A DNA stretch of 47,769 bases, the filler included, from Jimgerdemannia flammicorona (Eukaryota), in NCBI GenBank assembly GCA_003990765.1. It is 2 parts of 2 records of this genome, joined end to end, with 100 filler letters (N's around TTAATTAATTAA, not from the genome) between each part and the next. Parts side by side here need not be neighbours in the genome. Positions count along the whole stretch, not along the records: positions 1 to 23,835 come from RBNJ01001054.1; positions 23,936 to 47,769 come from RBNJ01001055.1. One strand, written 5' to 3'. A model generated the notes under the pieces. It saw nothing but the letters and a program-made list of their open reading frames with translations, was not told the DNA's origin and ran no database searches. Numbering within the stretch: position 1 is the stretch's first letter; every line of letters begins with the position of its first letter. The translations under genes were made by a program, and so were the position numbers. This document shows, in pieces, positions 327 through 45,281 of the stretch.

Positions 327-328
<2 letters not shown>

Positions 329-7610: not shown

Positions 7611-7735
7611 TTTTTTTTGGGAGTGACTGCTGCTTCCGTCACCTGACTTCAATAATTACGTATTAAGGATGCAGTTCAAAATTCCCAGGTCGTGGGCAGT
7701 CACGGAAACGGGGTATTGATTTTTTAACTCAATAT

Positions 7736-10732
7736 TTCTTTTTTTTTTTTCTTTTTCCCATGGATATTAGGCTCTTTTATTAACTAATCTATAACAAACA
7801 CATGGTCCTTATATCACACTGATAGCTCCAACCTGACCCCACCCTACTTTATCTCAATATATCTTCTCTCTCATTTCTTCTTTTTTAAAAACTATCAGAT
7901 TATTAATCACTTCAACCCACTCACTACTCCTCTCACATATCTCTACTATCTATCTCTTATTCTCAAATATATATAGCCAGTATCCAGCTAACTCTACCCA
8001 CACTGCTAATATTTACTTAACAGTGAGTTACTCATTATCTATATATTTCATCAACTACTTTTTCAAATTATCTCATCTTTTTCTCTCTTTACTATCCTAC
8101 TATCTTACCCCTAGATGACTCTCAACTATTGTCCAGAAATCATCAAGTACCTTACATTTACTTAGCCAATATTCAGATATCTGTATAAATTTCTCTCTTC
8201 TACTTAATATTATAACTCTTTCTATCAAATATTTTGACTAAAAGTTCAATATAATATTTCTCCTCAAGATATACCACCACACTATCTAGAATTTAGGAGA
8301 AAGACCTTAGTACTCCAAGATCAGACTCTAGCTTAGTTTTACATCTTTCTAATATCTACTAATTATTAGTCTAATGATTATAGATTCTGTCTCACTCTCT
8401 ATTAATATTCTATACTAATACTAATATCAAAGTCTATTAGTAGTAAACTATTTAACAAAAGTCTATCTTATCTCTATATTGCAAGTCCTTATTATATCTC
8501 TTCCTTATTATTATATCAATATAAACTAATGTAATGAGTACTCTTCACTACTCTCTTTTTTTTTTTTATATAGCCCTCTACTACTCTCTATCAAAATCTC
8601 CTATACTATAAGTACCTACTATACTTTAGGTCAATTATTAATAATAAATCTCCTAAAAAGCTTTTAGGGGAGAATGACCTTCTATATCAGTAATACTTAT
8701 TCTCTATTCTGTAACTTAATAATCTTTAATCACCAAGCTCTAAGATAATACAACTTCTTTAGAAAGTCTACCAAACTTAGATCTTTTCTGTTCACTGAAG
8801 TTGATATTATCTCTCAACTTATTTGACTTTATCTTTTAGTCCAAATTTGGTCCTTAGCTATCTTTAACAATCTCTTTACTACTTAAGCTAGAAAGTCTAA
8901 ATAATATACTACAACTTTAGTAATTAGTAGATATTAAGAATCAATATCTACTTAGTAAGAGAAATATAATATTTCTCCCAACTCTAAAAGATCTCCCTCT
9001 ATTTTACCACCTTTCTCTTCTACTAAGCTCTAGGTAAGACTAATCTATATATTAATAGAAAAATATTCAGATACTATACTATCTCTCTTATAGAGATAAT
9101 AGTGATCACAATATCTCTATTTATTAAACTATTCTCTAACATCATCATCTTATACTTATATCAGTTGAGCTTACTCTAAAGCACTCCTTATACTAATCTA
9201 TAGCAGCTCTCAGCTCATTAATATCCTTAACAGAACTAAGTCTAACTATTATATATTTTATCTATAAAGACTCTAATCTTTCAGATAACTCCTAATACTA
9301 TAAGTTTCAATATCTTGTAGTGAATTCTATCTATCAATAGTTCTAATGATAAAGTGTACAAAATAGAAGATAATAGGTTCTTCTGAGAAATTCTCTCCTC
9401 AATAAGACAAGATATTATAATAATTATTGTACAAAATTACTACTTGGCTACTCTTTAATAAACTAATTATTAATAACTAAAATCAGTAAGAGATACTAAT
9501 TCTTACTAATATCTTCTCCAGCTAGATATACTATATCTGATCATAGGTCTTCTTCTGATTCAGAAAGACCAACTGTCCATTTAGTTTACTAGTTTTTACT
9601 CTTTCAATTATATTATAAACTCAGGCTGTCCTATTTCTAATTAGCCTACTACTAATAAAGCTCCTCTACTCAACTTCTAATATATACATATCTATTGAGC
9701 CACCTTCTACAACCTTATAACAATCACTTTTATAACCAACTTTCTGTTTATATCTAAGAGTATAATTAGTCTCCAATTCTTCCAATTCTCTCTCCTATTC
9801 TTATCTTTATATAGCAGTACTATCAGACCAAGATTCTGACCTTTAACTCACTTCTCAGATATAAGGACAAAGTTATATAATACTGTCATCTTCTCTAACA
9901 CTTTTAGGATATTTACTATCTTCTTTTAAAAGTCCCAAGATAGGTCATCTTTATCAAGAGTAATGCCCTACTTTATAGCTAATAAGATACTCAAAATTTT
10001 GCCCTTCTAGATCAGCAAAACTAAGTTCTCAAGACTATTAACCTATAGAGAGTACTAATTCTCCAAAGAGTGCTCAATATCCTGCTCATTAGTATTTTCT
10101 TTTTTCTCATCTCACAGATCTCTCTATCTACTTTTCAAAGAATCTAAGATCTTCTATATCTTATTCACAAGAGTATTCTTCTTATTGATCACTCTATTTT
10201 ACTACTACTACCTCACTCTTCTTACCTAAAGAAGTCTAGTTAGATACTTAATATGTAGATCTCTCACCTTTCTCAAGCTTTTGCCACTATAGCTAAGCTA
10301 CTATACTCTATATATGTATGAGCCTTCTTTTTCTCTCTCAATACTCTCTTTAACTTCTCTATCTCTAGCTGGACCCATTCTAACCTCCAATCTTCTATAT
10401 CTTCTTGCTCTAATATCTCAGCTTACTCCAACTATAACCTCTCTATTCTGCAAAAGGCCCACATCACTCTTTATCTCTGCTGAGCTTCTTGAAACCTACT
10501 AGCCTTACCCCAATATACTCTAGTAACCTTCTTCAACTTTATCCAATAGATCTCTACTGAGGATCTCTTATATATCTAGCAAATAATCTTTATTCTAATA
10601 TTCTCTATCTAAGTATCACATAATCTCTTTTTTTCTAATAAGAAGAAATTAAGATACCAATGTTCAGACTCATCTCTACTCTCTCTAAACTAGTTATATT
10701 TTAATAGCTCTCAGTGATCAGACTATGGATAC
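7736..10732 (-). mobile_element. Heavily mutated L1-like LINE, 3' part (RT, 3' end, poly(A))
   Basis: The reverse complement near 9530-9580 reads DGQLVFLNQKKTYDQ, homologous to DGCLVFLDQEKAYDH of the LINE at 33720. AATAAA (TTTATT on +, ~7776) lies just before a T-tract at ~7736-7756. The endonuclease SDH motif is at ~10715. Confidence 0.75.
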
Positions 10733-10885
10733 TATTGAAATATGTAGGTTACAACTCAATATATGGTGGCACAGCCTTTCTTAACTACATCATCATGTAA
10801 ACGTCACTAATTGTGACATGTAAAAGCATGTAAGAATTAGCAATAAACAAAAAGCTTCTCCCTCCATTCCAAGTATTCCACAACA
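10733..10885 (+). repeat. Copia 5' LTR (TATTG...CAACA)
   Basis: Direct repeat of 15659-15811. Confidence 0.95.
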
Positions 10886-10888
10886 AAA

Positions 10889-10900
10889 GGTTATGAGCCC
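10889..10900 (+). promoter_or_regulatory. Primer-binding site GGTTATGAGCCC (copia-type, internal initiator tRNA-Met region)
   Basis: Lies 3 nt after the 5' LTR and matches the copia half-tRNA PBS pattern GGTTATGRGCCC. Confidence 0.8.
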
Positions 10901-10951
10901 CGCTTAGCGGCTATACACCCCTCTTATACATACACTACACTATGCTATACA

Positions 10952-13900
10952 ATGGCTACTAGTCCAAGCAGTGCTAGTAGTGCGCCACCAAGTTCTGGTA
11001 ACATGAACACAAATACAGCTGGAACAGATTTTGCTTCCATGATGACGAACATTCCAGCAGTGGCACCAATGTCAATGGTGAAGAGGATGATTCCTGTCTT
11101 TGATGGTAAGAACTACGCCATATGGGCATACCATATGAAGAATCTCCTAGAAGAATGTGGTTTGGAGGACTACTGGAAGCCACAGGTGCAAGTAATAATA
11201 TACAACACCGCGAAAGATCACAAAGCGCTAAGGGAGATTACGTTCACCCTTTCGAATGCACAAATGAAGCTAGTAATCAACACTACGACAGTGAATGAAG
11301 CCTGGGAGATTTTATGCAATCACCATCAACAGGCATCCACATCAAACAGATTCCACTTAAAGGCGCAACTATTCAATCTTTGAATTAAGTCTAAGGAGAG
11401 CATCTGGGACTATGCTAATCGAGTCGATGAGCTGGCGAATCAAGTGAATTCTCTTACATCTATGCTGGCGGACACCATCAAGGATGAAGACAAGGTCCTG
11501 GCTCTTATATGAGGCCTTCTCGAAGTATACAATGTGGTTGTCACTACTATAAGGGAATCCGGCAGATTATCAGATTATAAGCACATTATCACAAGTCTTT
11601 TAAATGAGGAAACAAGGCTAGGCAGCAACAATGCCAATGAGGAATATGATGAGAAAGCATTCTATGGCGGAGTATGTGGATGAGACACAGGCAAGCCGAA
11701 CAAAGGTCAAGGCCAGCAATGCAAGAAATTTGACGGTAAATGCTTTTACTATAATAAGCATGGACATCGTGAGCAGGACTACAACTGCAAGAAGAAGGAA
11801 AAGGGTGGCCAACAGCAAGGACAATGGCAGGCAAACACAGTAGATACCAACAACGAAAACAGTGGTGGTGGAGGTCTATTCTTTGCAGAAGTGGTGACCT
11901 ATCTATATACAGAAACTATTGAAATAGGAGGAAATTCAGAACCAACTGCCAGTTCCACCAACACCAGTTACAGATGCAATTCCACCAGTTCGACATCTAC
12001 AAATCCTGGTCAACAAAATACTTTTCAGACAGCGAAAAATAGTGACGTCAATGTCGGTGCCAGCACAAATGTAAGCTATATGCCGAACAGCACTTATGTA
12101 TGCAGTGAAGAGGTCTGGCTCATGGATTCGGGTGCAACACAGCATATGACGGCTCACTGGGAGTGGTTCTCTACATACAAGAAGTTTGAGTATCCCATAC
12201 CTATCAAGCTAGGTGACAATAACGTCATTTACGCTCAAGGGAAAGGCAACATAGGCATACATCTACATAGAAACATTGATGAACCTTCAGGCATCTTCAT
12301 AGATGTACTATATGCTCCAGATATAGACAAGAACCTCTTCTCGATAGGCCGGATGATGGCTTGCGGGGACAGAGGAGTAGATATACACCCAAATGGTGTA
12401 ACGGTAATCAATCTGAAGAATAATAAGGAGTTAATATACATATCGAAAAAGGGGAATCTATATGCAATCAATGGCATGCCGAGTGGCGCATCATTCACAT
12501 ATTCTGCAACTATGACTGGAGAAGATCTCTGGCATATATGGCATGAATGCTTAGGACATATCAGCAAGACGAGCCTGGAACGGATGATAAGGAGCAAGTC
12601 CATGTATGGTTTACTGGACTATATGCCACCAGATTTCTTTTGCGATGGATGCGCAGCAAACAAGGCTTCCCGGCAACCTTTTCAGGAATGAATGAAGCGA
12701 GTGGCCGGCATTCTCGATTTGATTCATATGGATATTTGTGGCCCCATGCAAATGGCATCACACTCTGGAAAAAAGTATTTTATTACATTCATTGATGATT
12801 ATACATACAAAGTTCACATATATTTCATTACAGGGAAAAACGAGGCATTCGACAAATTCCAGAAATTCAAGGCAGCCATGGAGAACAAGACAGGATGTAG
12901 AATACAAACCCTATGCTCAGATAACGGTAAAGAATACGTCAACAAAGGTTTCAGACACTTCTTGAAGAAGAATGGTATACAGTACTCTACGACAGCCCCT
13001 TATACACCTCAGCAAAATAGCATGGTGGAACGATTCAATCGAATGGTAGTGGAAATGGCTAGAATGATGATGAATACAGCCAGCTTACCGAAGTCCTTTT
13101 GGGTGGAAGCAGTGAATATGGTGGCATATATTCGAAATCATTGTTTCTCTTGAGCTCTAAGCAAGGATCTAGCAAGCAATCTAGGAATGACAGCAATCTT
13201 ACCCCTGAGGAATTATGGAATGGATCCAAGCCTGACATTTCACACTTATGCATATTCAGAAGTGAGACATACATTCTGGACAAAGGTGGCAACCGAGGCA
13301 AGTTCAAACCTAAGGCAGATAAGCATATATTCCTTGGATATGATGGAGTGGGATACAGACTTTGGAACCTGCCGAAACGATGTATGATCATTTCACGCAA
13401 TATACAGTTCAAGGAGATTAAGCAAGAAATTTACGTGAAAATTCCTATCTTGAATCCAATGGTGAATCCAACGATAAATTCGACTATATAGCCAGAAACA
13501 TCTATGCCAACTGCAAAGGCTAGCAGAACAACATCTACACCCAGAACAATACCGAAGACTATGCCAAAGACATCATTGGGACCTATGCCAGCGAATGCGC
13601 TACCCATTCAAATGGCAATGAAGTTGCAAGAACCAAGGATAACAGAAATTATAGATGAGGACGATAAAGAGGATACCTCTCTGAAGGGTAAGAAGAAGTG
13701 CAAATCTGGGATGGATAATGAAGTCCAAGCGGATCTGGGAAATTACTGGAACCCACCCAAGTCATCTTGTCACAAATAATATCACATAAACTACACCTGC
13801 GAATGTACTTACATAGCAATGACTGGTGAGCCAGCACACTACGACGAAGTCATTCATTCGAATGATAAAAAGGAGTAGAAAAAGGCTATGGACGAGAAGT

Positions 13901-15401
13901 ATAACTCACTCATTGAGAATGATATGTGGGACTTGGTCCCTCTTCTGGCAAATTGACAAGCCATAGCATCCCAATGGGTGTATAAAATTAAACATAATAG
14001 TAATGGCGGTATAGAATGATACAAGATCTGATTCGTGGCAAAGGGGTATTCATAAGACTTTGGAGTCGACTATGACGAAACATTTTCCCCAGTATTTAAG
14101 CTTACTTCACTTAGAATACTTCTTGCGATCAGAGCCAAGTATGACTATAAGATACATCAAATGGATGTTAAGACAGCCTTCCTAAATGGAGACATAGATA
14201 CCAAACATATGTTCTTCAACCACAAGGATATGAACTATATGACAATGACAGAAACAAGCTCATATGTAAATTATGCAAAGGGCTCTATGGAATCAAGCAA
14301 GCGGCAAGATTGTGGAATCAAAAGATCGATGGATATCTCCTAGACAACAGATTCAAGCGTTGTGAAGCTGATCCATGCATATATACCCAACATACATCCT
14401 CAGGAATGGTATACCTGGAAATTTGGGTTGATAATATTATTTTAGTCAGAACAGCAAGTGAAATCAATGATGTAAAGGCTATACTATGCCAGGAATTCAA
14501 AATGACGAACTTAGGTGAAGCGTCCTATCTCCTTGGAATATCGATTACATATAATAGGTGCGAGTGCGCTATACACCTAACACAAGCCACATACATTCAA
14601 AATATTCTCGAGCGATTCGGGATGAGTGAATGCAAACCAGTCAGGACACCTATGGAAACATTCGTGAAACTAAAGAAGTCTGACACTACGCCCGAGGGAA
14701 ATGACATCCCCTATCAACAAGCTGTGAGATCCCTCATGTATCTTATACAAGGGACGAGACCTGATATCTCTTTTGTGGTAAACAAAGCGGCGTAGTATTC
14801 TTCATACTACAATAATATCCATTGGACAGCAATCAAGCGAATTTTCAGGTACATCAAAGGAACTGTGGACTATATGCTCACTTTGGATGGTGATAATGGG
14901 CAAAGCGGGAGTACTATATTCCTACTCGGTTCTTGTGATGCCGATTGGGCCGGCAACTTAGATGACAGAAGGTCTATAACTGGATACATCTTTAAAGTAA
15001 ACAACGGAGCCATTTCATGGCAAACGCATAAGCAACCTTCAGTGGCAATATCCTTTATACAAGTGGAATATCAAGTGTTGTCAACAGCAACAAAGGAGGC
15101 TATCTGGCTTTGAGAACTGTTAAAGGAGCTGGAATACAAGCAATGGCACTCTACGCTACTCCAGCAAGATAACCAATCAATGATTGCTTTGACAAAAAAC
15201 CCTATACATTATGCCAGAATGAAACACATTGACATACAGCATCATTTCATATATGAATGTGTGGAAAACAGCACTATACACCTTGAATACACCCCAACAG
15301 AATATATAACGGCAGATTCATTGACTAAAGCCCTTCCAAAGGCAAAGTTTGACTTATGTATGCAAGGAATGGGTATTACGGGACTCTACACTGGTAATTA
15401 A
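10952..15401 (+). pseudogene. Copia gag-pol polyprotein pseudogene
   Basis: ORF fragments are broken by CGA>TGA and TGG>TAG type stops and a frameshift near 12688. The zinc knuckle is eroded to CFYYNKHGHREQDY. Confidence 0.92.
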
Positions 15402-15658
15402 GGACAATTCGGGATGAGATAGGATAATAGAGTGACAGCAAGCTTCTTTAACATTGATTCCTGCATTGGTGATTTCTACCAACATTGCTCATCTATGAAT
15501 GTTCACATTTCTACTTTTCAACCTATTTTTCGAGCTTTAAGTAGGCAATTCAGGTGTTTTTCGGTTTCTAGATAGTGGTCTGAACATTGCAGCGAGATTT
15601 GCAGTAATTATAGCTTAGTATTGCAGTTTGGGAATTTGCATATCTCGTTGAGCGGGAG

Positions 15659-15811
15659 TATTGAAATATGTAGGTTACAACTTGATATATGGTGGTGCAG
15701 CCTTCCTTGACTATGTCATCATATAAACGTCACTAATTGCGATGTGTAAAAGCACATAAGAATTAGTAATAAACAAAAAGCTTCTCCCTCCATTCCAAGT
15801 ATTCCACAACA
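15659..15811 (+). repeat. Copia 3' LTR, preceded by purine-rich tract GAGCGGGAG
   Basis: Direct repeat of 10733-10885, followed by the TSD GATAC. Confidence 0.95.
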
Positions 15812-15980
15812 GATACTACTCTATCTTTAAAGCTACTCAGATATTTAGTCTCCAGTAATCAGTAGTCAGTATTCTGTCTATTCTTATCCCAAGTTTATTT
15901 ATTCAGTGAATATAAACCTTCTAGTCACCCCACACTATTCTGCTAGTATCTATTAATAAACTTAGATACTCTACTTTACT
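15812..15980 (-). mobile_element. Continuation of the old minus-strand LINE (endonuclease region)
   Basis: The reverse complement aligns by eye with 36400-36550 of the intact LINE (RIDRIL-type motif) and joins the SDH motif left of the copia. Confidence 0.7.
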
Positions 15981-17440
15981 CTTCTAGATATATTTTACAT
16001 TATACAAATATATATTACTATATTTTACACAGTTTTTTTTTAGTAAAAAGTATTAAGAATATATTATTAATTCAGAGTTCTGAGAAGTATACGTATTAGG
16101 CAGAGTGGCCCTAGTATATTCAACTAGCAGTATATGAAGAGAAGCTATAGCTTGAGAGGAGGTTTGTTGAGCTCTTATTTAGGTGAACATAGTAGTGATA
16201 AGAGACCAGATACTGAAGGACAGGAGGCTAGGAGAGTAAGCTTTGCTGATAAGATCAAGGCTAGAGATCAGTCAATAGATCTAAATAGCTGGCTACAGGG
16301 GGGCAAGGAGAAGATAAGAGCTATAGGGCCTGGAGAGATTGTACAGAGTGGTAATAAGAGTAGGGCTAGGGGAGTAGTAGCTGGGGGGGAGAGGAGGACT
16401 ACTGATAGAAGAGTAATTACTGATCTGGAAAAAAATCTAAATATGATAGTGATTGGAAGATCTGGACAGAAGATGATATAAGGTCTGGAGACTTGGCTAT
16501 CAGTATAATAGACCTGGTGATAGTATTATTACTTAAGAAATCAGTATCTGAATTCATAGTTACTCTGTGTTTCTAGAACTTAACAGTTATGGTAAAGCCA
16601 GTTCTAGAGTTGCTGGCCCAGAAGATGAAAGAGACAGTCTCAGTAAAGTTTTTGAAAGAGCTCAAGATAGTCAAAGTAGACTTTGAGGAAGAGGATCAGA
16701 TACTGAAAGTGCTGGAGAAAAGAGTGGTAGTTAGAGGAGTAGTAATTCTGATAATAAGATATCTATATTGAGACTCCTGAGTGGTTTAGCTAGTAGTGAT
16801 AAATGTTTCTACTATGAAGAAAAAAGAGGCCAGAAAGCTGATTATTGATACTATTAAGAAGTATAAAGATATAGTAGATATTGAATTCTCTAAGAGGGTG
16901 CAAAGTTCAGAATGAATAATGTAGATATTTGGATAAGGCTGATAGAAAAGAAAAATATAGAGAAAGAGAGAGATTGGCTAATAATGCTGAAGTGGAGCTC
17001 AGTAGAGTATAAGATATTGAGAGTAAAGAGGATATCTGAGGAAGAGAAGAATTTTCTAGAGGATTTGGTAGAGATAGTTAAGAGAAAGAGGCTGACTTAA
17101 AAGAAGTTTAAGACTAAGACAATAGTGGAAATTATATATTAATAACAAGAGGGTGCATCTGGATTGAGCTGCTTGAGAGAGAGCTTAAGAAAGACAGTAG
17201 TAAAGAGAGTTATTGGTGAGTTTAGAGGGAGGTTTAAAAGTAGTAAGATCTATTAAGATAGCTGAATCAAGGGCTAGTATCTGGACAGAAGAGACAGTAA
17301 TATTATGAGAGAGAGATCTGAAGGAGAGTGTAGCTCCAGAGCATAGCATAGTGATTGAAGATGTAGTAATAAAAGAAGAGACTTAGGTCTAGTATAAGGT
17401 TCTGACTATAGAGGAGAAGGGGGGAGATGAGTTAGTATAA
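15981..17440 (+). mobile_element. L1-like LINE 5' UTR and ORF1 relic in opposite orientation
   Basis: Homologous to 33735-35330. For example, TTACTTAAGAAATCAGTATCTGAATTCATAGTTACTCTG matches TTACTCAAGAAGTCAATCTCAGAGTTTGCAGTTACTTTG, and VSVKFLKEL matches VSVKFLKGL. Confidence 0.75.
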
Positions 17441-20177: not shown

Positions 20178-21175
20178 GCAGTAGTAAAAGAGGGTATAAT
20201 GAGAGCCAAGAGAGGGCTGAAAGAATCAGTAAGAGGAGTAAAGCTTAAGCCATTATCAAAGAAAAAGAAATAGAGAGAAGATAAGATATAGATAAAGAAT
20301 AGGGTAGAAATTGCATTTATTATTTATTACTATATAAAAGTATAGTCCTTATATACAAATATGAAGTTCCAAAAAGAAATAATACATCACAACATAGAGA
20401 TGACTAGATTAAGAATCTTATGTCATATGAAGATAAGGGAGGAGCCAATCCTAAAGTGAATATAAAAATCAGAAACAAATAAATCCAAATCAAATAGTAG
20501 GAGGAAGTACAATGAGAGTCAAGAGAGGGTCATAAAGACTGGTGAGAGGGGTAAAGTCTGAGCTATTATTAAAGAAGAAAGAAATAGAGGAGAGATAAGA
20601 TATGTATAAGAAAAGTGAAAAATAAGGATAGATAAAGAACAGGACAGAAATTGCATCTGTTGTTTATTATCATACAAAAGCACAGTCTTTATATATAAAT
20701 ATGAAGTTCTAAAAAGAAACAATATACTATAATACAGAGATAATCAGATTAAGAATCTCATGCTTACTGTGGCTTGCTCTACTTGATCTCACCCCTTACT
20801 TATACTCATCCAGAGTCTGTAGTTGTTTTATAATCTTGATTTAGATTTATTTATTTCTGATTTTTATACTTGCTCTGAGATTGACTCCCCTCTTATCTTT
20901 ATATGATATGAGATTCTTAATCTGATTATTTCTATATTGTGGCATATTGTTTCTTTTTAGAACTTTATATTTGTATATAAGGATCATACTTTTGTATAGT
21001 AATAAACAATATATATATTTCTGCCCTATTCTTTGTCTATACTTATTTCTCATCTTTCTCATATCTCATCTTCTCTCAATCTTCTTCTCTTTTGACAATA
21101 ACTCAGGCTTTATCTCTCTTGCTGGTCCTTTTGGCCCTCCTTTGGCTCCTATTGTACCTCTTCTACTACTGCTAC
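20178..21175. repeat. About 320-bp repeat: two tandem copies (20178-20493, 20494-20762) followed by an inverted copy (~20835-21175); pseudo-LTR-like
   Basis: GAGAGCCAAGAGAGGGCTGAAAG and GAGAGTCAAGAGAGGGTCATAAAG recur, and the reverse complement CTTTTGGCCCTCCTTTGGCTCC is at ~21128. Confidence 0.9.
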
Positions 21176-23935: not shown

Positions 23936-23940
23936 AAAAA

Positions 23941-24218
23941 AGACCATCACCCAGAAATCGCATACTTTTGGAGATTGCCTCACTATACAAAATTGTACTA
24001 TTCCCAGTTGACCCAAGAAGGAAAAGACATACAAATCACTGCTATGCTCAGAGAACTGTCCCAATAAGGAAATTGCTCACAGATATCCAGTCTTGACTAT
24101 TATATCGTTAAACACTAAGAACATTTTATTGCTTTTTAACAAAGTAACTGGGGGCTCAAGCCAAACTACATCAACCCTCCAACCTTGTAATTTGCCTCCA
24201 TTGAGCCAGCATGTTACA
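23941..24218 (+). repeat. Gypsy 5' LTR, 3' portion only (cut by gap)
   Basis: Matches ~31286-31562 and ends in TTACA. Confidence 0.92.
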
Positions 24219-24220
24219 TT

Positions 24221-24237
24221 TGGGGGCTCAACTGGGA
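24221..24237 (+). promoter_or_regulatory. tRNA-Pro-type primer-binding site TGGGGGCTCAACTGGGA
   Basis: Directly follows the LTR and resembles the canonical Pro PBS TGGGGGCTCGTCCGGGA after CpG decay. Confidence 0.75.
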
Positions 24238-33719: not shown

Positions 33720-36700
33720 TACAGGCATCTTTCTCTAGTAACATTTGGGTTATACAACCTCTTGGCAATACTTTCAATACAGTTTCTAGAGAAAAGCTAC
33801 TAGTATTATAGCAACCATTGAGCATTCCAAGGTACATACTGGGCAGGATGGCCCAGGTGCTTTTGACTGACAGTATGTGGGAAGAAGTCCTGGCTTGGGG
33901 GGAAGCATGAGGGGTCTGCTGATAGGAGGATGTGGTAGGAGAGGGGGAAGCACTGGAGGTCAGGGGACAGAGAGAGAGAAGCACTGGAGGTCAGGGGACA
34001 GAGAGGGTGAGCTTTGTAGATAAGGTGAAGGGAGGTCAGTAGGATACTGGGCTGGAGGGCTGGCTTAGGAGAGACAAGGAGACAGTGAAGACAGCAGAGT
34101 GGTGGCCCCAAGGGAGAGTCTCTCTGGGGGGCTGGAATAGTGGGACTGGTGGTGTAGGAGCAGAGAGAGTGACTGCTGATGGGAGTATAATGGGTGATCA
34201 GGAAAAAAATATAGATAGGACTGCTGATAGTGGACCAAGCAGCAGGAAAGGCATGAAGCCTAGTAACCTGACAGATGGTGTAACAGGACTGGCAGTAGCA
34301 CTATTACTCAAGAAGTCAATCTCAGAGTTTGCAGTTACTTTGTACTTCTGGGGCTTAGCAGTGATGATGGAAATGGTCCTGGGGCTGATTGCTCAGCAGG
34401 TGGCTGGAGCAGTGTCTGTAAAGTTCCTGAAGGGACTAGAAGAAGTAGAGGTTGGCTTCGAGAAGGGTGGACCACTGGAGGAGGTACTGAAGGCAGGGTT
34501 GACAGTTGGAGAGATATGTATTCTAATGGCATGCTGCTTGAGGTGGGACCCCAGAGTGGTGCAATTGCTAGTGAAGAGAGTGCCCATGGTGACTACTGCA
34601 GAGATAAGGAGAAGAGTGGAAGAAGTTATAGCCAAGTATAGCAAGGTGGTGAATGTTGGGTTCTAGGTCTGAGAGGGGACCTCATTCAGAACTAGGGATA
34701 TAGATGTTCAAATTCAGTTAGCAGGGAAGGAGGCTACTGGGAAGACTAGGGACTGGCCCTCAGTGATGGTCTGGGGGGCTTTCTTGTATAAGGTGACAAG
34801 GGTGAAGGAGAGCAAGAAGGAGGAAGAGGATCTGCTGAAGGCACTAAAAGAGCTGAGTGGTGCTGTGGAGTGGAGGGTGAAGGCTTGGAAGGCATATGTT
34901 GAGTTGGTGCATTTGGAAATAGTAGATAGAAAGAGGATTTGGATGGATAAGGGGTGGTGGGAGAGATCCCAAGAGTGTAAGCAGTAGAGAGAGCTATTGG
35001 CAAAACTGAAAAATAGAGTGAAGAAGGATACTGATGATGTTGAAATTGTGGGGAGAGCCAAGGAGAGTATATGAGCTAATGAGAAGAGAGAGAATGCAGA
35101 GAAGGGGCCAGAAGGAGGAGAGGTGGCAAAGGGTAGCAATCCTTATGTGAATGATACCTTTGAGGTCTGGGAGCTGTATCTGACCCCTATATCACTTATT
35201 AGATGAGATCCAGCTTTGAGAGGCAGGGTGGCAGAAGATGTACCCAAGTGGAGAGCCCAGAGAGTACACTTTGGAGTTCCTGAGGTAATAAAGGAGGAGC
35301 AGATAGTGGTGGTAGGTGAGGATGAACTGGTGGATATTCAGAAGGAGGTATGGGATGAGGCTGTAAGTACTGGGGCTGATATCTCAATGCTGGATAGAGG
35401 GCAGCTAGCAACTTCTGAGGGGAAGGAGGTGGGAAATTTATTATAGATGTGTAAGATGATAAACAACTTTGTAGTGGAGGAGTTGGGGAAGGTGGACCTG
35501 CAAGTGATGAGTGATGAGCATTGAGTGTGTATTCTGTGAGGTGAGGAAGTAGTAGAGGCACTGAAGGCAGAGATTCTTATAGTTTTCCTGGAGGAGGAAG
35601 GTTATGAGGTTGATAAGGAGTGGGAGGCTGGGCTGGCAGTTATTGCTGGTGAGAAGGCTGCTTACTATTGGGCAGAGCAGCATGGGTTGCAACCCTGATA
35701 GGAGGTCTGCCTGGAATATTATAAAGAATTTAAGGAGAAAGAGGATAGAGAGCTTAAGGAACTTCTGGTTAAATTGAAGGCAGAGGAGGAGGAAGCTGCA
35801 GAACATAATCTGGACCTAGCTCAGGATGAGATGTATATAGAGCAGTAGAGGATTTGCTTACTCTTATATATTATTCCTTATGAATAGTACAACTAACATT
35901 TTTTCTTTGAATGTGAATGAGCTACAGAGTTTATTTCATCAATGGAATATTTTTACTTGGTTGAAGGGATTGGAGGCTGATCTCTTTCTTTTGCAGAATA
36001 TCAGGTGTGAGGATGATTTGGATAAACTGAAATAGATGAAGAAATGGAGAGAAGAGGCAATCTGGAAGGGCAAGGTTGGAATTCTGGTCAGGAAGAGCAG
36101 AGGGGAGATATATGATATATAGAACTGGGGAGACAGGTTGGTTTGGAGTGAGTGGATTCAAACTGGTCAAGAACTGGTTACAGTGGGATCCTGCTACTGT
36201 CCTACAGTATGGGGTGAGTGTGTAGAGTAGGTGAAGAGACTCCTGGAGGAAGAGCCACTGGTGGAGGCTAGAGTGGATGTACTTGGTGGAGACTTTAATA
36301 TGGTCTGAGATATACTGACAGATAGAACTAATGGAGGGTGGAGGACTGTGGATAAGAGTGAAGGCTTGGAGATATGGGAGGAAGTCAAGAGGCTGAGTGC
36401 TTTAGTGGATGCTAGCAGGGAGCTGTAGGGTAACAGAAGGGTATATACATATTGAGCAAGTGGCCTGGAGACATGGATTGACTGGATTTTGATAGCAGAC
36501 TGCTGGTGTTTGGATGTTTGGAGGTCTCTGGAGATGGAATAGTATCTGTGGTCTGATTATTGGAGACTGCTGGGACAGGGATATTTTGGAGAGAGTGGGG
36601 ATGGGCTGGGACATTGACACCTCAACTCCTCCTTGTTAGACAATAAGATACTGTGGGACAAGTGGGCTGCAGATATTCAGCAGAGGGTGGAGGGGTAGAT

Positions 36701-39593
36701 ATAGGAAGGTGTCTCAGTTAGTGATAGGTGGATATGGCTGAAAGAGGCTGCTAGAATCTATTGGAGAGAAGTAGGTACAGTAGCTGGGAGACAGAGTAGG
36801 AAGAAGAGATTGTGGGTCTCTGCTAGATTGACAAGGCTATTGGGAGTCTGTTGGCTCTGGAGAGGATAGAGGATTGGAGACTACTAAGGATGAGAAAGGA
36901 GATTGTGAAGCTACAACAGATATTGTAGGAGAAGGAGGAAGTACAGATGTAGAGTATGGCAGTACAGCTATATTGACAGGGGCTAGAGGAAGGAGAGAGG
37001 CCCTCTAAGTTTCTCACAAGAGCCCTTCAAGCAAGGAGGGTTCAGCAGTGGTGGGAGGGGGTTATTGATTTGAAGAGGACATTGGTATATAGTATACAAG
37101 ACATTCTCAGATTACTGAAGGAGTAGTAGAGTGGCTTGTGGAGTGAGAAAGAGGGTGGGGCAGAAGATGATACCATTGGTATTGTCTTGGAGAATTGGCA
37201 CCCACCTCCAGTAGAAGGGCTGGGTGAACTGATGATGCTAGTACAGGAGAAGGAGATTTACCAGGTTCTTGCTATGACTGCACTGGATACAGTACCAGGT
37301 GAGGGTGACCTGCTCTGGGATTTCTAGAAGAAGATAGTGGATGTCCTCAGTGTGCTGGGTGAGCTGAGGGCTCTCTGTGACTTGGTACTACAGATCAAGA
37401 GATGGGTTGGGGAGCAGGATCTGGGGCTAGTGATACTGCTATATAAGAACAAGAGTAGGAGGGAGGACTGGAAGAACTGGAGGCCAATTATGCTACTGGA
37501 TATAAATAGAAAGTTGATAACTAAGATGGTAGTAGCAAGGTTGCAGAAGGTAGCTCAACAGATCTTGGGGGTAGAGCAGTAGAGATTTGTTGGAGGCCAA
37601 CTCATTTGAGATGGCACAGCTTGGGTCCACAGTGTTATTGAAGGAGTATATGCCTGTAGATTGGATGGGTGCCTGGTCTTCTTGGATCAGGAGAAGGCAT
37701 ATGACCATGTTTGGAGGGTCTGGCTGATGAAGGTACTGGACAGGATTGGAGTTCCTCAACAGTTCCAAGGGGCAATGGTCAGTCTACTGAAAGGTAGCAG
37801 GACTGCACTCATGTATAATGGGCATCAAGGGGTGGCATTCCCTCTGAGTAGAGGTGTGCTCCAGGGGGACCCCCTGTCCTCCATTTTGTATACACTCTCT
37901 TTGGAGTCCTTAATGAATAAGATTCAGTAGAAGATAGGAGGACTTTCAGTTTATGGCATTGAGTGGAAAGTTGGTGCCTTTGCAGATGATATAGTGGTTG
38001 GTCTGTGTTTGATCATTGATGTTGAGAAACTCAAGGAGACTGTGGAGTGGTATGAGATACACTCTGGGGCTAAACTCAACTGATACAAGTGTGAAATAAT
38101 GGTGCTGAGTAATGGACTGATGGGGGGGGATGTCATTGGAACAATTGTCCCTACTGGAGAGGCAGTGAGGTATTTGGGCATCTATCTGTCAGTGTATGGG
38201 TCTATTCTCCCAAGACTCTGGTGAGAGCAGCAGGTGGCTATCTGGGGGAGGGGCCCTGTGAAGCTAGGGAGGCCACCATCTGTCTCTGGCAGGGCATGTT
38301 TTCATCTTGAATACTTACTGGCTACCAAAGCTATAGTATCTGGCATATCATCTGGACTTCCCAGCCTGGGTGGTAAAGAGACTGCTGAACCTGGCCAAGG
38401 GGTGGATCTGGGCAGAGAGGAGGAGTCAGATTAGCTAAGAAATTCTGTCCTTATTGGTGACTAGAGGGGGTCTTGGGCTGGTTGACTTCCCAAAGAGATT
38501 ATACTGCCTGAGAGTATGGTGGCTGAAGAGAGCTGTTGAGTTGGGGAGCAGCAGCTGGGTTCCTCTATTGGAGAAGATCTGGGAGATGAGGTCCTTATCA
38601 AGAGGCTCTACAGGAGATCTTCTGTCTTTGGTTGAGCTTCAAAACAAAGGGCATATACCATTTAAGGACTTCTGATAGTGAGTCACTGATGGGACACACT
38701 GCATTGGTATTCATTAGCAGAGAGATGAGGGAGAAAGGCCTTGAGGCCTAGCAATGTTGAGATGGGACCAAGTATTGCTAGAGAGCATTCCACTAAGAGA
38801 CTTTAATATTAGTGATGGGGTTGAGTGTCAGTGGGAGTTGGGGCAGGATCTGTGGTCCAGCAGATGGTAGTTAGTGGATATTGGTGAAGAGTAGAACTAG
38901 AATAGGATCTGGAACTAGAGTACTGAGGTTTGATAGTAACTATCACCAAAGTATTGAGTGGTCTGGTAGTGCATACTGAGGAGGAATGTCATGCTCAACT
39001 TCCCCTCTGGTCACTTGGTGGAAGGGGGATTCTTTGACTGTAAGGAGTGCTATAATGTTGGGCAGGAAGGGGGTTTAGTACAGATGTCTGAACATTGGCT
39101 AGGGGAGTATGAGATGCTCAGTATCTTCTGGATAGCAGTTGGAGAGAGGTTGGATGTCATCTGGAGGGGGGATGGTGTGAGGGGTTGGTGGGAGGATTTG
39201 TGAGACAGATTGGTAGGAGGGGTTGGGAGGGAGTGGCTTACTTTGGAGTGGGCACTGGCTGTATAGATAGGGTTGGCAGGTCACTGACTATATATGTTTG
39301 AGGATGAGAGATGTTTGGACTTAGAGGTATAACTGGGATAATGGGAAAGGCTGATAGAGGATACTCTGATGGGTTGGTGGCTTGGGTGGGGATTGCAGGG
39401 GGGTCAGTGGTATTGTTTGGTAGAGAAGATATGTAGACAGAGTGGGGGAAGAGTTGGGGTTGTAGATAACAAGATGATTTTCAAGCATGAAAGAGTGGGT
39501 GAGAGAGAGAATTCCCCTATAAGGATTGGGTAGTGAGAGAAGGTTATGTAAATTTATATATAGACTAGTAATAAATGGCTAAGTTCAAGTATC

Positions 39594-39672
<79 letters not shown>
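33720..39672 (+). mobile_element. Full-length L1/Tx1-like LINE (ORF1, APE endonuclease, RT), inactivated by stops
   Basis: 17-bp TSD AAACAAGTACAGCTATA (33703-33719, 39670-39686), AATAAA at 39570 and poly(A) at 39597-39672. Motifs include LNVN, GDFN, NWRPIMLL, LDQEKAYDHV, GVLQGDPLS and AFADD. Confidence 0.95.
33947..34006 (+). repeat. Tandem duplication GAAGCACTGGAGGTCAGGGGACAGAGAG in the LINE 5' region
   Basis: Two adjacent near-identical copies read directly. Confidence 0.85.
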
Positions 39673-39673
<1 letters not shown>

Positions 39674-40637
39674 AAGTACAGCTATACTATCAGAATTGAA
39701 TTTTTACTCAAGAAGGAACTCAAGAAGATACTTTATAATTTTAAGGATGTCTTTATTATAGATTTCAAAGATATTAAAGAAAAGACACTATACTACTACT
39801 ATAATATAGATATAGGAGATGCTGAACTAATCTATTAGAAGATAAGACCCATCTTACTAGATTACTATAAATGACTTAGAGAAGAAATTAAACAAATGAA
39901 AAAAGTCAGTATTATTAAAGAAGCCAGTAGTTCTTAGGCTTTACCAGTTGTACTAGCTCTGAAGAAAGAAAGCAAACCTGGAGAATTTGTCTCAAGACTC
40001 TGTACTGATTATAGAAAGCTCAACCTAGTTATTGAAAAGGATTACTATTTACTACTCCTCATCAATAACATCCTTATAATTCTGGGAGATAAAGTATAGT
40101 ATTATAGTATCTAAATTTATATTCAGAATTCTACCAAATTAGTCTTATTGAAATAGTAAGCAAAAAGTCAGCCTTCATTACTCCAGATAGAATCTATATA
40201 TATCTACTTATAAATACTATTTAGAATATATAAGCTTCTAGTGAATGATGAACAAAATCTTCTACAATAATATAGAAAGATAGATAATAGTTTATATAGA
40301 TGATATTACTATATACATATCTATAGTAAGATAGTATAGAATCACCTATAGTATATCTAATAGATAATAGAGAAATTGAGAAACTATAGCTTATATATTA
40401 AGTCTAAGAAGTATAAGTTTACAGAAATTAAGATTTTCTATCTTGGTTATATCATCAATCAGAATGGAATATATACAGACTCTCTCAAAATTTAAGCAGT
40501 AGTAGTATATCTAAGACCTATCATTATTATAGAAGCTCAAGCCTTCTCATACTATTATAGATTTATTAGAGGATTCTCTAACATTATAAGTTCAATCTAC
40601 AAATTCAATAAAAAGAATATTAAGTTCCAGTAGACAG

Positions 40638-42197
40638 TATTATGTAGTAGCTACAAAGTTCTTCAAATATATCAGATTTTCTTCAAGGTATATCTCTTAG
40701 ACTAACTATAAGTTTGTTATAAGTAAGTTTTAATTGAAGTATCTTCCCAAGATCTTATAGTCCTCAAACTTCTTATCTTTAAACTATCTTGTTATCTCTT
40801 AGATTGTTTGTATAGAATTAAGTATAGGTAAACTGGAACTGACTTTATTTCAAAGGAAATAAGAGAGGTATTTATATAAAATATAATTCAATGATTGCTA
40901 AGTTATAAAGCTAAATATAAATTCCAATAATTAAATAAAATACTGGAATATAGAAAACTATGGTTGTAAGTACAAATTCAAGTATCTGTACAAATGGTTG
41001 TATAAGTTCAGAATGTCAGTAGATTTTAGTAGTATAGGAAAAGAGTGCCTAAATATTCAGATATTATAAAAAAAGAATGCTGATAGAATTCAGTTATATA
41101 GAAAAAGGATATCAGAAGATTTTGGTATTACTAAGAACTTAGAGCAGAATGTTCAGAACCATGGGGGCTTCATCTTTATTACTATCAGAGGTCAGGATAT
41201 CTTTGAAGAAAATGAGGTCTATGAATATTTTGTCCATCTCACATATTTTGCATATATTGCATAGGATGATATCATCACCAGTGACATCATCATGTTCAAT
41301 AGCAGCAGGAGCTCTTCAATCTATGAAATTCTCTTCTACAAAATGAGGAACAAATATAGGGTCTTGGAGAGGTCTAATCTAGATGCTGGGGTCTTGAAAT
41401 ACTGAGATCAATTCTTATATAAATTGATCTGGATTGTCCTGGAGAATGGGATACCAGAACTCTTCTACTTCATCACTATTGAGAGTGATGATAGACTGGG
41501 CTTCTGTGGCCACTATGGCCTTCAGTACATTGGTATAGTGGGCTGACAGTTCCTTGAAGTCTGAGATTCTAGTATACTCCAAGTTGGAGATTGACTATAG
41601 TATATATGTATCTGAAGACTTAATGAATCTTCTTGACTGTCCTTATTCCACATGTATCCATGAGAGTAGTATCTTAAATCTCTTGAAGACTAGCCTGAGA
41701 GAATTCCTAACAGAGGAGGTTTCCTATTTTATACTTCTGCCACATTCAAAGATATTCAGTAGTAATGGTGATTCTTGTTTCCATTTCATAACAGTAGAGA
41801 ATATAATGATAAGGGTCACCAGTACTCAGGTTGAGACTAGGAGTCCTTCTTATATACATAGGTCCTTATGGCTCTTCTGATATCTTGGAATATTCTTTCC
41901 TGAACTGAGAGGCCTTGGTGGTTCCTGGACCTTGAGGTTTGGTGAGTAGCAGATATTTATTTATGATAAGTCTTTTGAACTATTTTTGTGAGCCTTGTTT
42001 GGATTGCTGCTACTATAATTTCTTGATTCTTCTTTTATATTTCTCAAGATATCTGTCTTGTGGTCATGATGACTCATGGTTGATCATCATTACTCATCTT
42101 GTAATCTGGGTGAGTCATGCTGTATGCTCTAATCTAATGGCTTATAAGGAAAGGCTGTCTCCTGTGATGATATCATTATTCTGAGATCACTATTATA
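40638..42197. mobile_element. 1.56-kb solo-LTR-like insertion in the old gypsy RT/RNase H junction
   Basis: Flanked by ACAG duplication (40634-40637, 42198-42201). Ends TATTA...TTATA look like mutated TG...CA. The host pol reads through when the insert is removed (FQ*T | ..QKIFNEL..KLIQAPIL). Confidence 0.65.
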
Positions 42198-42580
42198 ACA
42201 GATAGATAACAGAAAATATTCAATGAGCTCAATATCAAGCTAATCCAAGCACCTATTCTCAGAATACCAGATAGGTCTCAGGAATTCATCTTATAGACAG
42301 ATGTAAGTATACAAAGACTAAAAGTAGTTCTGGTTCAAAAAGAAGACAAAGTAGTATATATTATTATATATCTCAGCTAAGGAGTCCAAGAAGCCAAAAA
42401 AGTATATGAATTATATAAGTTAAAATATCTTACAGTTATCTGAACTATAGAAAAGTTCCACTACTATCTCACTAAAAGACATTTTACTATCCAGACAGAT
42501 CATTCAGGTCTTACTTAACTATTAACTACTAGATAACTCAAGAATATATGCCAGATAGATTATAAAGTTATAAGTCTATA

Positions 42581-42758
42581 TATATTTATATAGTCACTCA
42601 GACTTCTACTTTTATTACAAATTATCATCCAATCTAAGTTCTATTAATACAAAGATAATAATATACCATTTACCCAATTCTATATAGACTCCTCACCCTC
42701 CCTTCCTTTCTTCCTCACCTAAGAGTCACCAATCTCCCAGTAACCCCAACCCTCTCTT
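42581..42758 (-). mobile_element. 5'-truncated LINE 3'-end fragment (178 bp)
   Basis: 16-bp TSD AAGTTATAAGTCTATA (42565-42580, 42759-42774). The minus strand is G-rich with AATAAA and a TA-rich tail, resembling the LINE 3' end at ~39440-39590. Confidence 0.75.
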
Positions 42759-45281
42759 AAGTTATAAGTCTATAATATAATTATTGTATACTACTCTAGA
42801 AGAACTAATATCAATATAGATACTCTTTTATAGATATCTCAAAAGACTTTCAACTAGTAAACCAACTATAAATAAAGAAGCTCTATTATAGAATTATTAT
42901 CTATCTAGAACAGTGAAGATACCCCAATATCTGAAAGATTAGATATAAATAATTATCAACAGAATATAGAAATAATTTGAAACTGATAGAGAAATATTAA
43001 AAAAAGAAAAGCTATTAGTCATATCTGACTATAGGTATAAGTAATGAAATCAGTATATAAACTTAGCCATTTAGGAGAAATAAATATATACTATAAAGCA
43101 AGAAGAACAATATGATAGTTGAGAATAGAGAAAGATATTAGACAATTTGTCAAGACTTATAACAAATATTAGAAACAGAAATAAGATCAATGAAATCAGA
43201 CTCTAGGAATAGAATACATAGAACTAGTATCCTTTACACATATTGAAATAGATATAATTGGTCCTCTATCCTTAACTTCGACTAATAACTGATATATCAT
43301 TATCATTATAGACCTTTTTATAAAATAGATAAAAGCAGGATCTCTCAAGAAAGCTAATACATAGTTAATTACTGATTTCTTCTATAAAGAAATCATCTGC
43401 TAATTCAATACTATAATATAAGTAACTACAGATAGAGGAACAGAATTCATGAATTAATTCTTTGAGGTTTTCTACAAGAAGTACAAGATCTAGTACATTC
43501 AAACTATAACCTATCACTCTTAGGAAAATAGATAAGTAGAAAGGACTAACAAGACCTTCAAGAATATTATCACCAAGATCTATAATAATTATGAAAACTG
43601 AGATCACTATCTGTTAATAATATTATCTGCTCTTCAGAATATCTAATCACAAAATATCTATTTTATCTTCTGAGAAATACTGTTCAGAGAAGAAAGTTTT
43701 TTAGAAACTCTATTATCTAATAGAGATACTATATGAAAACATATAGATATAGAGATACAGAGACTATACAAAATTAGAAAGAAGACTAAGGATTATATAA
43801 CCAAGATACAGGCTCTATAATAGAATAATATAAATAAGATTTATAAGACTTTGAAGATTATTAAGATAGGAGAGAAAGTTCTAGTATATCAGAATATAGT
43901 AGAAGCTTTATGGTTACAAAAACTAGAGCCTAAGTAAGAGGGACCTTATTAGGTATAGGATATAAAAGAGACTATCTTTGATTACAAAAACTCTTAAGCT
44001 AATTATCCTCATCACTATCTATTAAAACTTACTCAAGAAGTATTATGATCAACTAATAAAGTAATGCCACAGCTCTTAAGATCACCAGTGCTACACAGTG
44101 AGCCATAGAATGATAGTGGTATTCTATCAAGTTACCAACTATAAAAGAATCCTTTAATAATATTCAGAGTATAGTATAGTCATACTTGTCATGAATTTCA
44201 TATTTCAAAATCTATTAGAACTAGACTGAGTTCTAAGAATACTTCAAGTTGGAACAGCTACTAAACTCAAAGTCAGAAATGAAAAAAGAAGATTGAATTA
44301 GAGAGTTTCAGCTCCTCTATACTCAAATCACTATTGCTAAGAGAGTATATAAGTTATTCAAAGAGGATGAGCCAGTCTTAGCTTATTTTCAAGAAGTAGC
44401 TTCAGAAGACTTCAGATATATTAGAAGACAATATTGAGAGACAAATTATATAGTATAAGAAGATTCAACTGATTAAGACTTCAGAGTTTGAGTGAATAGG
44501 ATATTTCAGAGATAAATTACTTATTTAGAAAAAAGTTATAATGATTGATTCAAATTAGTAACATAAATCAGAGGAATAGATATTTGATCATGGTACCTAA
44601 ATCTAATTCCAAATAAATATAGTCTTACAAATAGCAGTTATTCTATAAATATAAACTTTAACTTTAATAATTACTAAAGATTCTACAAATATTGAAATTC
44701 TTATAATTATCAAAATCTTAGCAAATGTTAAAAGATTTAACACTTGTGAAAAGTGACTTATAAATATAGTCATAACTTAGCCACCCTATAGCTAGCAAAC
44801 TTGTATAAATATCCTTAGTATCTAGAGTGAATAAATCTCAGTTCAAAAATAGTTCAAAGCAAAGAGAAAGCAAGAAGATTAGTAAGCCTGCAGGCAGATA
44901 CACTTCAAACTCATACCCCTGCACCCTGAGGACTCTGTGAAAGTCAGAACAAGATCAAGTTTCCAAGATACCGAAATCTGCCATATTCCCAAGGTTAGAC
45001 ATCCGCTACGTTACAATACTAATTAATACTGCTCACAAATATAGTGTTACCACCTCTCCGGGTGTTGTCGTCTTATGCATGGAGTCAAAGTTGTATAAAC
45101 AAACCACGAGAGATTCCAAACCCTTCATATTTCATATTGGACCCAAACGTATCTATCCTGGATCACAATCAAGAACTATACGAACAACGTTGGCGTATCA
45201 CCAAGTCATGAGATCATGTGAGAATTAGTGGCTGTTAATTTGTCTTCAGAAACGTTTTACGCAACCCTCTCCATTAAGAAC

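What the first reader, a model, noticed from the sequence alone, without database searches (positions are those of the whole stretch)
7736..45015. Repeat-targeted, staged C-to-T hypermutation (RIP-like) across the whole TE block in an apparently early-diverging fungus
Seen: the flanking genes are CpG-rich, whereas the TEs are eroded almost only by C>T/G>A. Severity follows nesting order. The copia keeps some CpG. The dUTPase gypsy and the full LINE have lost nearly all CpG but keep TG/CA. Their older hosts have also turned TG/CA into TA. Non-CpG hits are visible as TGG>TAG stops and Cys TGY>TAY in zinc knuckles. Established: RIP (RID/DIM-2 dependent, CpA-biased) is characterised in ascomycetes, and CpG-biased RIP-like patterns are known in some basidiomycetes. 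Inference: a CpG-then-CpA genome-defence mutator, or very strong 5mC deamination, acts here in a lineage where RIP is not established.
Basis: partly seen in the sequence, partly recalled or inferred. Interest (0 to 1): 0.75.

Follow-up and report, generated by a model that had tools for sequence, protein, structure and literature searches.

The report
Steady cytosine erosion of fungal transposons
In an early-diverging mycorrhizal fungus, nested dead transposons have steadily lost cytosines to C-to-T change at CG, CA and CC sites while neighbouring genes, including duplicated ones, are spared, which fits DNA methylation by DIM-2-type enzymes better than the burst-like RIP defence of moulds.

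Summary
The erosion is real. The host is Jimgerdemannia flammicorona (Endogonales, Mucoromycota). CpG observed/expected is 0.83-0.97 in introns and intergenic DNA, and 0.00-0.54 in the transposons. Copies differ by transitions 6-11 times more often than by transversions. Twin LTRs differ by 274 transitions and 14 transversions (19 pairs), so the change follows insertion. It is not staged and not CpA-specific: five families share one rate order, CG about 6-10: CA 1: CC 0.7-1.1: CT 0.2-0.5, and a constant-rate simulation reproduces the apparent stages. Copia and gypsy are equally eroded; the gypsy started CpG-poor. RIP hallmarks fail: no same-strand clusters, and a three-copy gene at 85-91% identity keeps CpG. 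The genome has three DIM-2-like methyltransferases; no RID-like or DNMT1 gene surfaced in lossy searches. The rate order matches Dim2-dependent methylation in Zymoseptoria (PMC8016269). Best reading: heterochromatic methylation followed by deamination; enzyme-assisted deamination is the main rival. No methylation data were seen. The scan found this pattern before on other DNA of this genome (94 notes).

The parts
370..3630 (-). Amino-acid permease gene, spliced; CpG-rich control
   Evidence: weak Pfam AA_permease_2; intron joints in RNA-like contigs; CpG o/e about 1
3946..5961 (+). Ankyrin-repeat gene with two paralogues at 67-73% identity that keep CpG
   Evidence: ts/tv 0.9-1.6, CpG o/e 0.9-1.3
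6491..7580 (-). Prohibitin-2 gene; fixes the lineage
   Evidence: exon 100% identical to a protein named J. flammicorona prohibitin-2
7736..10732 (-). Old LINE, 3' part with poly-A tail at 7736-7756; most eroded element (0 CpG, GC 0.30)
   Evidence: 57-59% identity to the younger LINE
10733..15811 (+). Copia retrotransposon, 153-bp LTRs at 10733-10885 and 15659-15811, target-site duplication GATAC; 29% of ancestral CpG left
15812..15976 (-). Continuation of the old LINE beyond the copia
   Evidence: copy L142 is continuous across the copia
16094..17073 (+). Eroded 5' fragment of another LINE
   Evidence: 57-60% identity to LINE copies
17074..23835 (.). Eroded repeats, not mapped to families; 2 CpG in 6.8 kb
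23940..31562 (+). dUTPase-bearing gypsy; 5' LTR cut by the assembly gap; progenitor already CpG-poor in the interior
33550..45015 (+). Old gypsy host (33550-33719, 39687-40633, 42204-42579, 42759-45015) split by later insertions
   Evidence: LTR end at 45015
33720..39670 (+). Full-length LINE with poly-A tail and 16-bp target-site duplication (33704-33719, 39671-39686); 1 CpG in 5.9 kb
40640..42200 (.). Unclassified repeated insertion in the old gypsy; no CpG
45004..45010 (+). Two ancestral CpG kept at the LTR end next to genes; lost in 24 of 24 other copies at each site
45189..46900 (+). Three-copy host gene region (85-91% identity) without hypermutation; duplicate control
   Evidence: ts/tv 1.6-1.9, CpG o/e 0.77-0.81

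Best explanation
After insertion, transposons are packed into heterochromatin and methylated by DIM-2-type cytosine methyltransferases, most at CG, less at CA and CC, least at CT. Methylcytosines deaminate to thymine one at a time on either strand and are poorly repaired, so every element decays on one clock (about CG 6-10 : CA 1 : CC 0.7-1.1 : CT 0.2-0.5). CpG runs out first; the TG/CA left behind then decay to TA, which looks like stages. Shown: direction, context order, post-insertion timing, strand independence, restriction to transposons, presence of three DIM-2-like genes. Inferred: that these enzymes methylate the repeats in that order, that targeting is by chromatin, and that deamination is spontaneous.
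For: Constant context order in five families and simulation; LTR pairs 274:14; same-strand adjacency 0.514 v null 0.508+-0.007 and per-copy strand chi2/df 0.96, where 100 or fewer strand-exclusive rounds would give 3.1-45; low spread among copia copies (chi2/df 1.8); duplicated host gene spared; gene-adjacent LTR end keeps CpG that 24 of 24 other copies lost; three C5-methyltransferase loci, two with RFD+DUF7893 N-termini, best solved match 9BAP/9BAQ (9BAP is named in the Neurospora DIM2 paper PMC11315935), motifs I, IV, VI present in all three. Zymoseptoria Dim2-dependent 5mC in TEs runs CG 43-61%, CA 10-22%, CC 3-8%, CT <0.01% (PMC8016269). Phycomyces methylates TEs in CG and CHH and has DIM2 (PMC11258239).
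Against: No methylation data for this fungus. The excess is very large: CpG hits about 0.6 per site against T>C about 0.0016 in copia (different estimators), far above the roughly tenfold CpG effect of mammals (recalled). A TDG-like glycosylase gene fragment exists, so missing T:G repair is not shown. In Zymoseptoria, Dim2-linked mutations were >98% at CA and spared CG, which its authors read as not spontaneous. Neurospora DIM-2 is listed as preferring CpT. CpT here is still about 6 times T>C in copia singletons. Non-CpG hits lie closer together than shuffled in three of four families (z 4.2, 10.6, 4.2; copia 0.6). Edge protection did not generalise (rho 0.30, p 0.13, n 26). Only one duplicate family above 80% identity was tested, and it is probably under selection.
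Confidence: 0.5

Rival explanations
1. Enzyme-assisted vegetative mutator: one of the DIM-2-like paralogues (or a partner deaminase) converts C or 5mC to T in heterochromatin directly, site by site, as proposed for the mitotic Dim2-dependent mutator of Zymoseptoria. Same targeting as the best reading, different chemistry.
For: Size of the excess; TDG-like gene present; three paralogues, the two placed in a tree on long branches (1.47 and 1.49 v 0.2-1.1 for neighbours); mitotic precedent; a bacterial methyltransferase can deaminate its target without SAM (PMC3804486, search listing only).
Against: Mutation order follows the published Dim2 methylation order rather than the CA-only mutation pattern of Zymoseptoria. 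Long branches may reflect faulty gene models. No deaminase search was run.
Confidence: 0.3
2. Homology-sensing, premeiotic RIP with a broad CG/CA/CC spectrum, acting in many weak rounds.
For: Repeat restriction, sharp borders, C>T on both strands; short-range clustering in three families; sexual fruiting bodies exist in Endogonales (mentions field-collected fruiting bodies); RID searches were lossy.
Against: In Neurospora 91.9% of clusters are single-strand (PMC7296669); none seen here. Duplicated gene at 85-91% over 1.6 kb spared. All three enzymes found carry BAH-type regions, which RID lacks (PMC7862722). Species scored no_rip (PMC12543289 supplement file 12), though that screen targets AT-rich k-mers.
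Confidence: 0.1
3. Editing during retrotransposition (cDNA deamination or reverse-transcriptase error), inherited by the copies.
For: Mild excess of sense-strand CpG loss in copia and gypsy (0.48 v 0.42-0.43).
Against: Twin LTRs, identical at insertion, carry the signature; non-CpG rates are near-equal on both strands; load grows with nesting age.
Confidence: 0.03
4. Genome-wide C>T bias with ordinary ageing; genes look spared only through selection.
For: Transversions and indels also rise with age (0.006 to 0.032 and 0.001 to 0.013 per site); the duplicated gene shows a mild CpG effect.
Against: Introns and intergenic DNA keep CpG; duplicates have ts/tv 1.6-1.9 and near-balanced C>T v T>C (76 v 58 private changes).
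Confidence: 0.04

Closest known systems
Dim2-dependent methylation and mitotic C>T mutation of transposons in Zymoseptoria tritici (PMC8016269)
   Same: TE-restricted, DIM-2-type enzyme, 5mC order CG>CA>CC>>CT equals the mutation order here
   Different: There >98% of new C>T were at CA and CG was spared; here CG is hit 6-10 times more than CA and CC about as often as CA; different phylum; three paralogues
CpG methylation and deamination of fungal transposons (Tuber melanosporum CpG+CpA; basidiomycete CpG; PMC4352252)
   Same: CpG-dominant transition bias in TE copies, read as methylation then deamination
   Different: Tuber has RID; basidiomycetes show CpG only with Masc2/DNMT1-class enzymes; CpC is not a listed signature
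Canonical RIP of Neurospora crassa (PMC7296669)
   Same: C>T/G>A erosion of repeats, AT-rich relics, TG/CA to TA
   Different: RIP is CpA-led, clustered on one strand, hits duplicates and needs RID; none of these was met here
TpCpG hypermutation of Pucciniomycotina (PMC3318451, abstract)
   Same: CpG-focused C>T in TEs outside Ascomycota
   Different: TCG is the least-hit CpG here (0.32 v ACG 0.62 in copia, 0.37 v 0.69 in gypsy), and non-CpG hits are abundant
5mC on Phycomyces blakesleeanus transposons (PMC11258239)
   Same: Mucoromycota, CG and CHH methylation of TEs, DIM2 present
   Different: Described as silencing; the passages read report no mutational erosion; that species also has DNMT1

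Membership tests
Canonical RIP | C>T/G>A confined to repeats | tested here: met
Canonical RIP | CpA preference | tested here: not met
   CG 6-10 times CA; CC 0.7-1.1 times CA
Canonical RIP | Strand-exclusive clusters | tested here: not met
   power run excludes 100 or fewer strand-exclusive rounds per copia copy, not several hundred single-hit rounds
Canonical RIP | Homology sensing: any duplicate is hit | tested here: not met
   one three-copy gene region at 85-91% spared; a second family at 67-73% spared but may be too diverged
Canonical RIP | RID/Masc1 gene | tested here: inconclusive
   none; no RID query was available, one search missed one real locus, assembly has 35,354 contigs
Canonical RIP | Premeiotic timing | not testable with these tools
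   needs crosses or parent-progeny genomes
Pucciniomycotina TpCpG hypermutation | TCG preferred | tested here: not met
DIM-2-linked methylation and mutation | DIM-2-type enzyme with catalytic motifs | tested here: met
   class of the C3657 enzyme weaker (123 v 116 bits; tree had one DNMT1 outgroup)
DIM-2-linked methylation and mutation | 5mC in CG and non-CG contexts on transposons | not testable with these tools
   no methylome available
DIM-2-linked methylation and mutation | H3K9me3/HP1 targeting | not tested
   no search for HP1 or an H3K9 methyltransferase was run
DIM-2-linked methylation and mutation | CA-only mutation as in Zymoseptoria | tested here: not met

The most novel reading that the evidence does not exclude
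Endogonales run a RID-independent, enzyme-driven genome-defence mutator: an expanded, fast-evolving set of three DIM-2 paralogues, without canonical DNMT1, that turns CG, CA and CC cytosines in transposon heterochromatin into T one at a time during vegetative growth, and has pushed long-resident gypsy lineages to shed CpG from their coding regions.
Probability: 0.25. Interest if true: 0.8.

Novelty: new variant of a known kind. Interest (0 to 1): 0.5.

Why it matters
A kingdom-wide screen restricts RIP-like erosion to ascomycetes and scores this species no_rip, yet its transposons are driven to zero CpG and lose half or more of CA and CC cytosines. That extends mutagenic transposon decay to Mucoromycota with a spectrum (CpC hit, CpT spared) and an unclustered mode that standard RIP indices misread. 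It gives a testable prediction for the methylome, a natural clock for ordering insertions in a 231-Mb genome, and a warning that LTR dating with neutral rates will overestimate ages here. It also bears on the open question whether DIM-2 is itself a mutator.

Tried and rejected
Staged CpG-then-CpA switch: rejected. CHG-type plant-like context: CAG/CTG/CCG not raised over CHH. Flank dependence of erosion: no relation to flank CpG in copia (n 21) or LINE (n 25); the gypsy and old-gypsy correlations are confounded because their flanks are largely the same element. General edge protection beside genes: not shown (4 v 21 copies). Loss of T:G repair: a TDG-like fragment is present. RNA-like contigs of 4 runs cover the flank genes and not 8005-19990; absence of cover in contigs is no evidence of silence. 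Inter-isolate differences in genes were too few (13 in run X2) to give a spectrum. Self-tblastx did not map the old elements. Two tree runs did not finish; the FastTree run has one DNMT1 outgroup and a query-biased set, so it is weak. Two exon searches of solved structures found nothing. The host of the dUTPase gypsy was left unmapped.
Full report
Organism and layout. A prohibitin-2 exon is 100% identical to a protein named Jimgerdemannia flammicorona, next Endogone 95%: Endogonales, Mucoromycota. The window joins two contigs of a 231-Mb, 35,354-contig genome across a gap. Genes lie at 1-7700 and 45016-47270. Between them are an old minus-strand LINE split by a copia, further eroded repeats, a dUTPase gypsy, and an old gypsy split by a full LINE and another insertion. 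Nesting was shown for copia-in-LINE and LINE-in-gypsy only.

The observation. CpG o/e is 0.83 in 13 introns and 0.97 in intergenic/UTR DNA, 0.54 in copia, 0.09 in the gypsy interior, 0.00 in the LINE (1 seen, 324 expected) and 0.02 in the old hosts (7 v 422). The left border is sharp: CpG at 7691, 7703, 7709, then none to the copia.

Copy sets. Genome searches scored only their best candidates (27 of 1793 copia, 20 of 5580 gypsy, 27 of 19451 LINE, 40 of 9974 old gypsy, 40 of 4483 old LINE), so the sets lean to copies like the window's. Aligned: 23 of 30 copia loci (length filter), 20 of 30 gypsy loci (10 were LTR pieces), 25 of 30 LINE loci (27 passed, 2 dropped as second pieces of contigs already used), 28 of 30 old-gypsy loci, 20 of 20 old-LINE loci.

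Direction and timing. Transition/transversion ratios are 10.8, 10.4, 7.4, 8.3 and 6.0. Copia singletons give C>T 15.4 and G>A 14.7 against T>C 1.0 and A>G 1.2 per 1000. Outside ancestral CpG columns, C>T is 0.042 per C against T>C 0.0016 and transversions 0.0017. Nineteen of 23 copia copies had both LTRs; they differ by 274 transitions, 14 transversions and 2 gap columns in 2896 sites, so the change is genomic and post-insertion.

One rate order, not stages. Hits per site for CG, CA, CC, CT are 0.62, 0.096, 0.065, 0.025 (copia); 0.63, 0.083, 0.079, 0.040 (gypsy); 2.5, 0.26, 0.20, 0.059 (LINE); over 4, 0.57, 0.51, 0.13 (old gypsy); saturated, 0.71, 0.78, 0.16 (old LINE). A simulation on random DNA with fixed rates 6:1:0.7:0.22 passes through the copia-like, LINE-like and old-host-like compositions in turn; its CT+AG excess at matching GC is somewhat lower than observed (1.5 v 1.6-1.8). 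CpA is already hit while 28% of CpG remain. Copia and gypsy retain the same share of inferred ancestral CpG (0.28, 0.29); the gypsy began with 22 per kb against 77. A 5' A and a pyrimidine at +2 favour hits; TCG is the least-hit CpG in copia and gypsy, and CHG is not raised.

Mode. At 328 clean CpG columns in copia, neighbouring hits share a strand in 0.514 of 4364 pairs (null 0.508+-0.007) and per-copy strand chi2/df is 0.96; gypsy gives 0.485 and 1.07. Simulated strand-exclusive rounds give chi2/df 3.1-3.7 at 100 rounds and 1.6-1.7 at 400 for copia. Non-CpG hits show no same-strand excess in four families (z 0.1-0.5). In Neurospora, 91.9% of RIP clusters are single-strand (PMC7296669, passages). 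Against full independence: non-CpG hits lie within 10 columns more often than shuffled in gypsy, LINE and old gypsy (z 4.2, 10.6, 4.2; copia 0.6), copies are overdispersed (chi2/df 1.8-5.5), and LINE strand chi2/df is 1.69. Context cascades, age spread and alignment error could cause these; I did not separate them.

Target. A three-copy gene region beside the block (85-91% identity, about 1.6 kb) has ts/tv 1.6-1.9, CpG o/e 0.77-0.81 and 76 C>T/G>A against 58 T>C/A>G private changes, with only a mild CpG effect. Ankyrin paralogues at 67-73% also keep CpG. The window's old-gypsy LTR keeps two ancestral CpG in its last 12 bases beside the genes; 24 of 24 other copies lost each, but this did not generalise. 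These are few controls and genes are under selection, so chromatin targeting is favoured, not shown.

Enzymes. Searches found three BAH-type C5-methyltransferase loci (G000 C8187, C3657, C11271) and two DNMT2-like pieces, the latter named from recalled motifs. C8187 has RFD, DUF7893, BAH and catalytic domains, matches 9BAP/9BAQ at 136 bits against 92 for DNMT1, and its nearest relatives are Mucorales proteins, one named Dim-2. The C11271 N-terminus is 29% identical to it and matches only 9BAP/9BAQ. C3657 is less clear (123 v 116 bits). 9BAP occurs in the Neurospora DIM2 structure paper (PMC11315935, listing and passages). An algal DNMT1 query and the RFD family found nothing further. No RID query was available and one search missed C11271, so absence of RID, DNMT1 or DNMT5 is not established. 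A TDG-like fragment is present.

Mechanism. In Zymoseptoria, Dim2-dependent 5mC in TEs runs CG 43-61%, CA 10-22%, CC 3-8%, CT under 0.01%, and Dim2 raises mitotic C>T more than tenfold, but over 98% at CA (PMC8016269, section 8 and passages). Phycomyces has CG 3.4, CHG 0.5, CHH 0.9% methylation, on TEs in CG and CHH, with DIM2 and DNMT1 (PMC11258239, passages). The mutation order here equals the Dim2 methylation order, which is what deamination of methylated sites predicts (inference). The several-hundred-fold CpG excess over T>C leaves room for enzyme help. I give 0.5 to methylation plus spontaneous deamination, 0.3 to enzyme-assisted deamination with the same targeting, 0.1 to RIP.

Prior art. 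PMC12543289 (abstract, section 9, passages, supplement files 1-12 searched; 13-19 and three oversize tables not seen) restricts RIP-like signatures to ascomycetes and scores this species, Endogone, Bifiguratus and Phycomyces no_rip; it filtered to scaffolds over 50 kb. PMC11105155 (passages) reports index-based RIP signals in Entomophthorales with caveats, so RIP-like claims outside Dikarya exist. PMC4352252 (passages) ties CpA/CpT to RID and CpG to Masc2-class enzymes in ten Dikarya genomes. PMC3318451 (abstract) gives TpCpG. PMC13297926, PMC7862722 and PMC10386755 were read as passages. Searches listed no paper describing this pattern in Endogonales; the library lacks most subscription papers and the original genome paper was not read.

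Verdict. Real, strong, genome-wide in this species (94 earlier scan notes fit, 8 seen; they are leads, not support). It works like DIM-2-linked methylation-mutation, fails three tested RIP features, and is a new variant in spectrum and lineage. Interest 0.5.

Noticed in passing
window 24219-29706 and L066-L084: The dUTPase gypsy's progenitor was CpG-poor in its interior (22 per kb v 77 for copia) while a young LTR piece (L109 4500-5129) has CpG o/e about 1: possible long-term escape from methylation by shedding coding-region CpG.
   Followed up: partly
window 10733-10738 and 19 copia copies: All 19 complete copies start both LTRs with TA, not the usual TG, so the non-canonical end is a family trait, not erosion.
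   Followed up: partly
copia and gypsy alignments: Ancestral CpG ends as TG more often than CA on the sense strand (0.40 v 0.28; 0.39 v 0.29); may reflect selection for synonymous changes while the lineages were active, or strand-biased deamination.
   Followed up: no
L058 1000-1500, L059 1000-1500, L150 1000-1500, L083 1-750: Small CpG-bearing repeated elements sit inside fully eroded nests beside LINE ends; probably young insertions.
   Followed up: partly
G000 C8187, C3657, C11271 (L130, L131, L135, L163): Three DIM-2-like paralogues; the two placed in a tree have long branches; one public gene model (P0121) skips the motif I exon that the DNA holds.
   Followed up: partly
window 23940-31562: The gypsy carries a dUTPase, and other copies stop matching at 29706 while the window copy reaches its 3' LTR about 450 bases later, suggesting an internal deletion in the window copy.
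   Followed up: no
window 20264-21014: Three related copies of a 180-340 base unit, two direct and one inverted, 81-85% alike.
   Followed up: no
window 45404-47270: Uncharacterised three-copy gene region with a weak SAM-like N-terminus (E 0.12) and a weak aspartyl-protease match (E 0.003).
   Followed up: partly
L162 (G000 C34337 1-118): TDG-like glycosylase exon at a contig end; the family search returned no UNG-type match, which is probably a search miss.
   Followed up: partly
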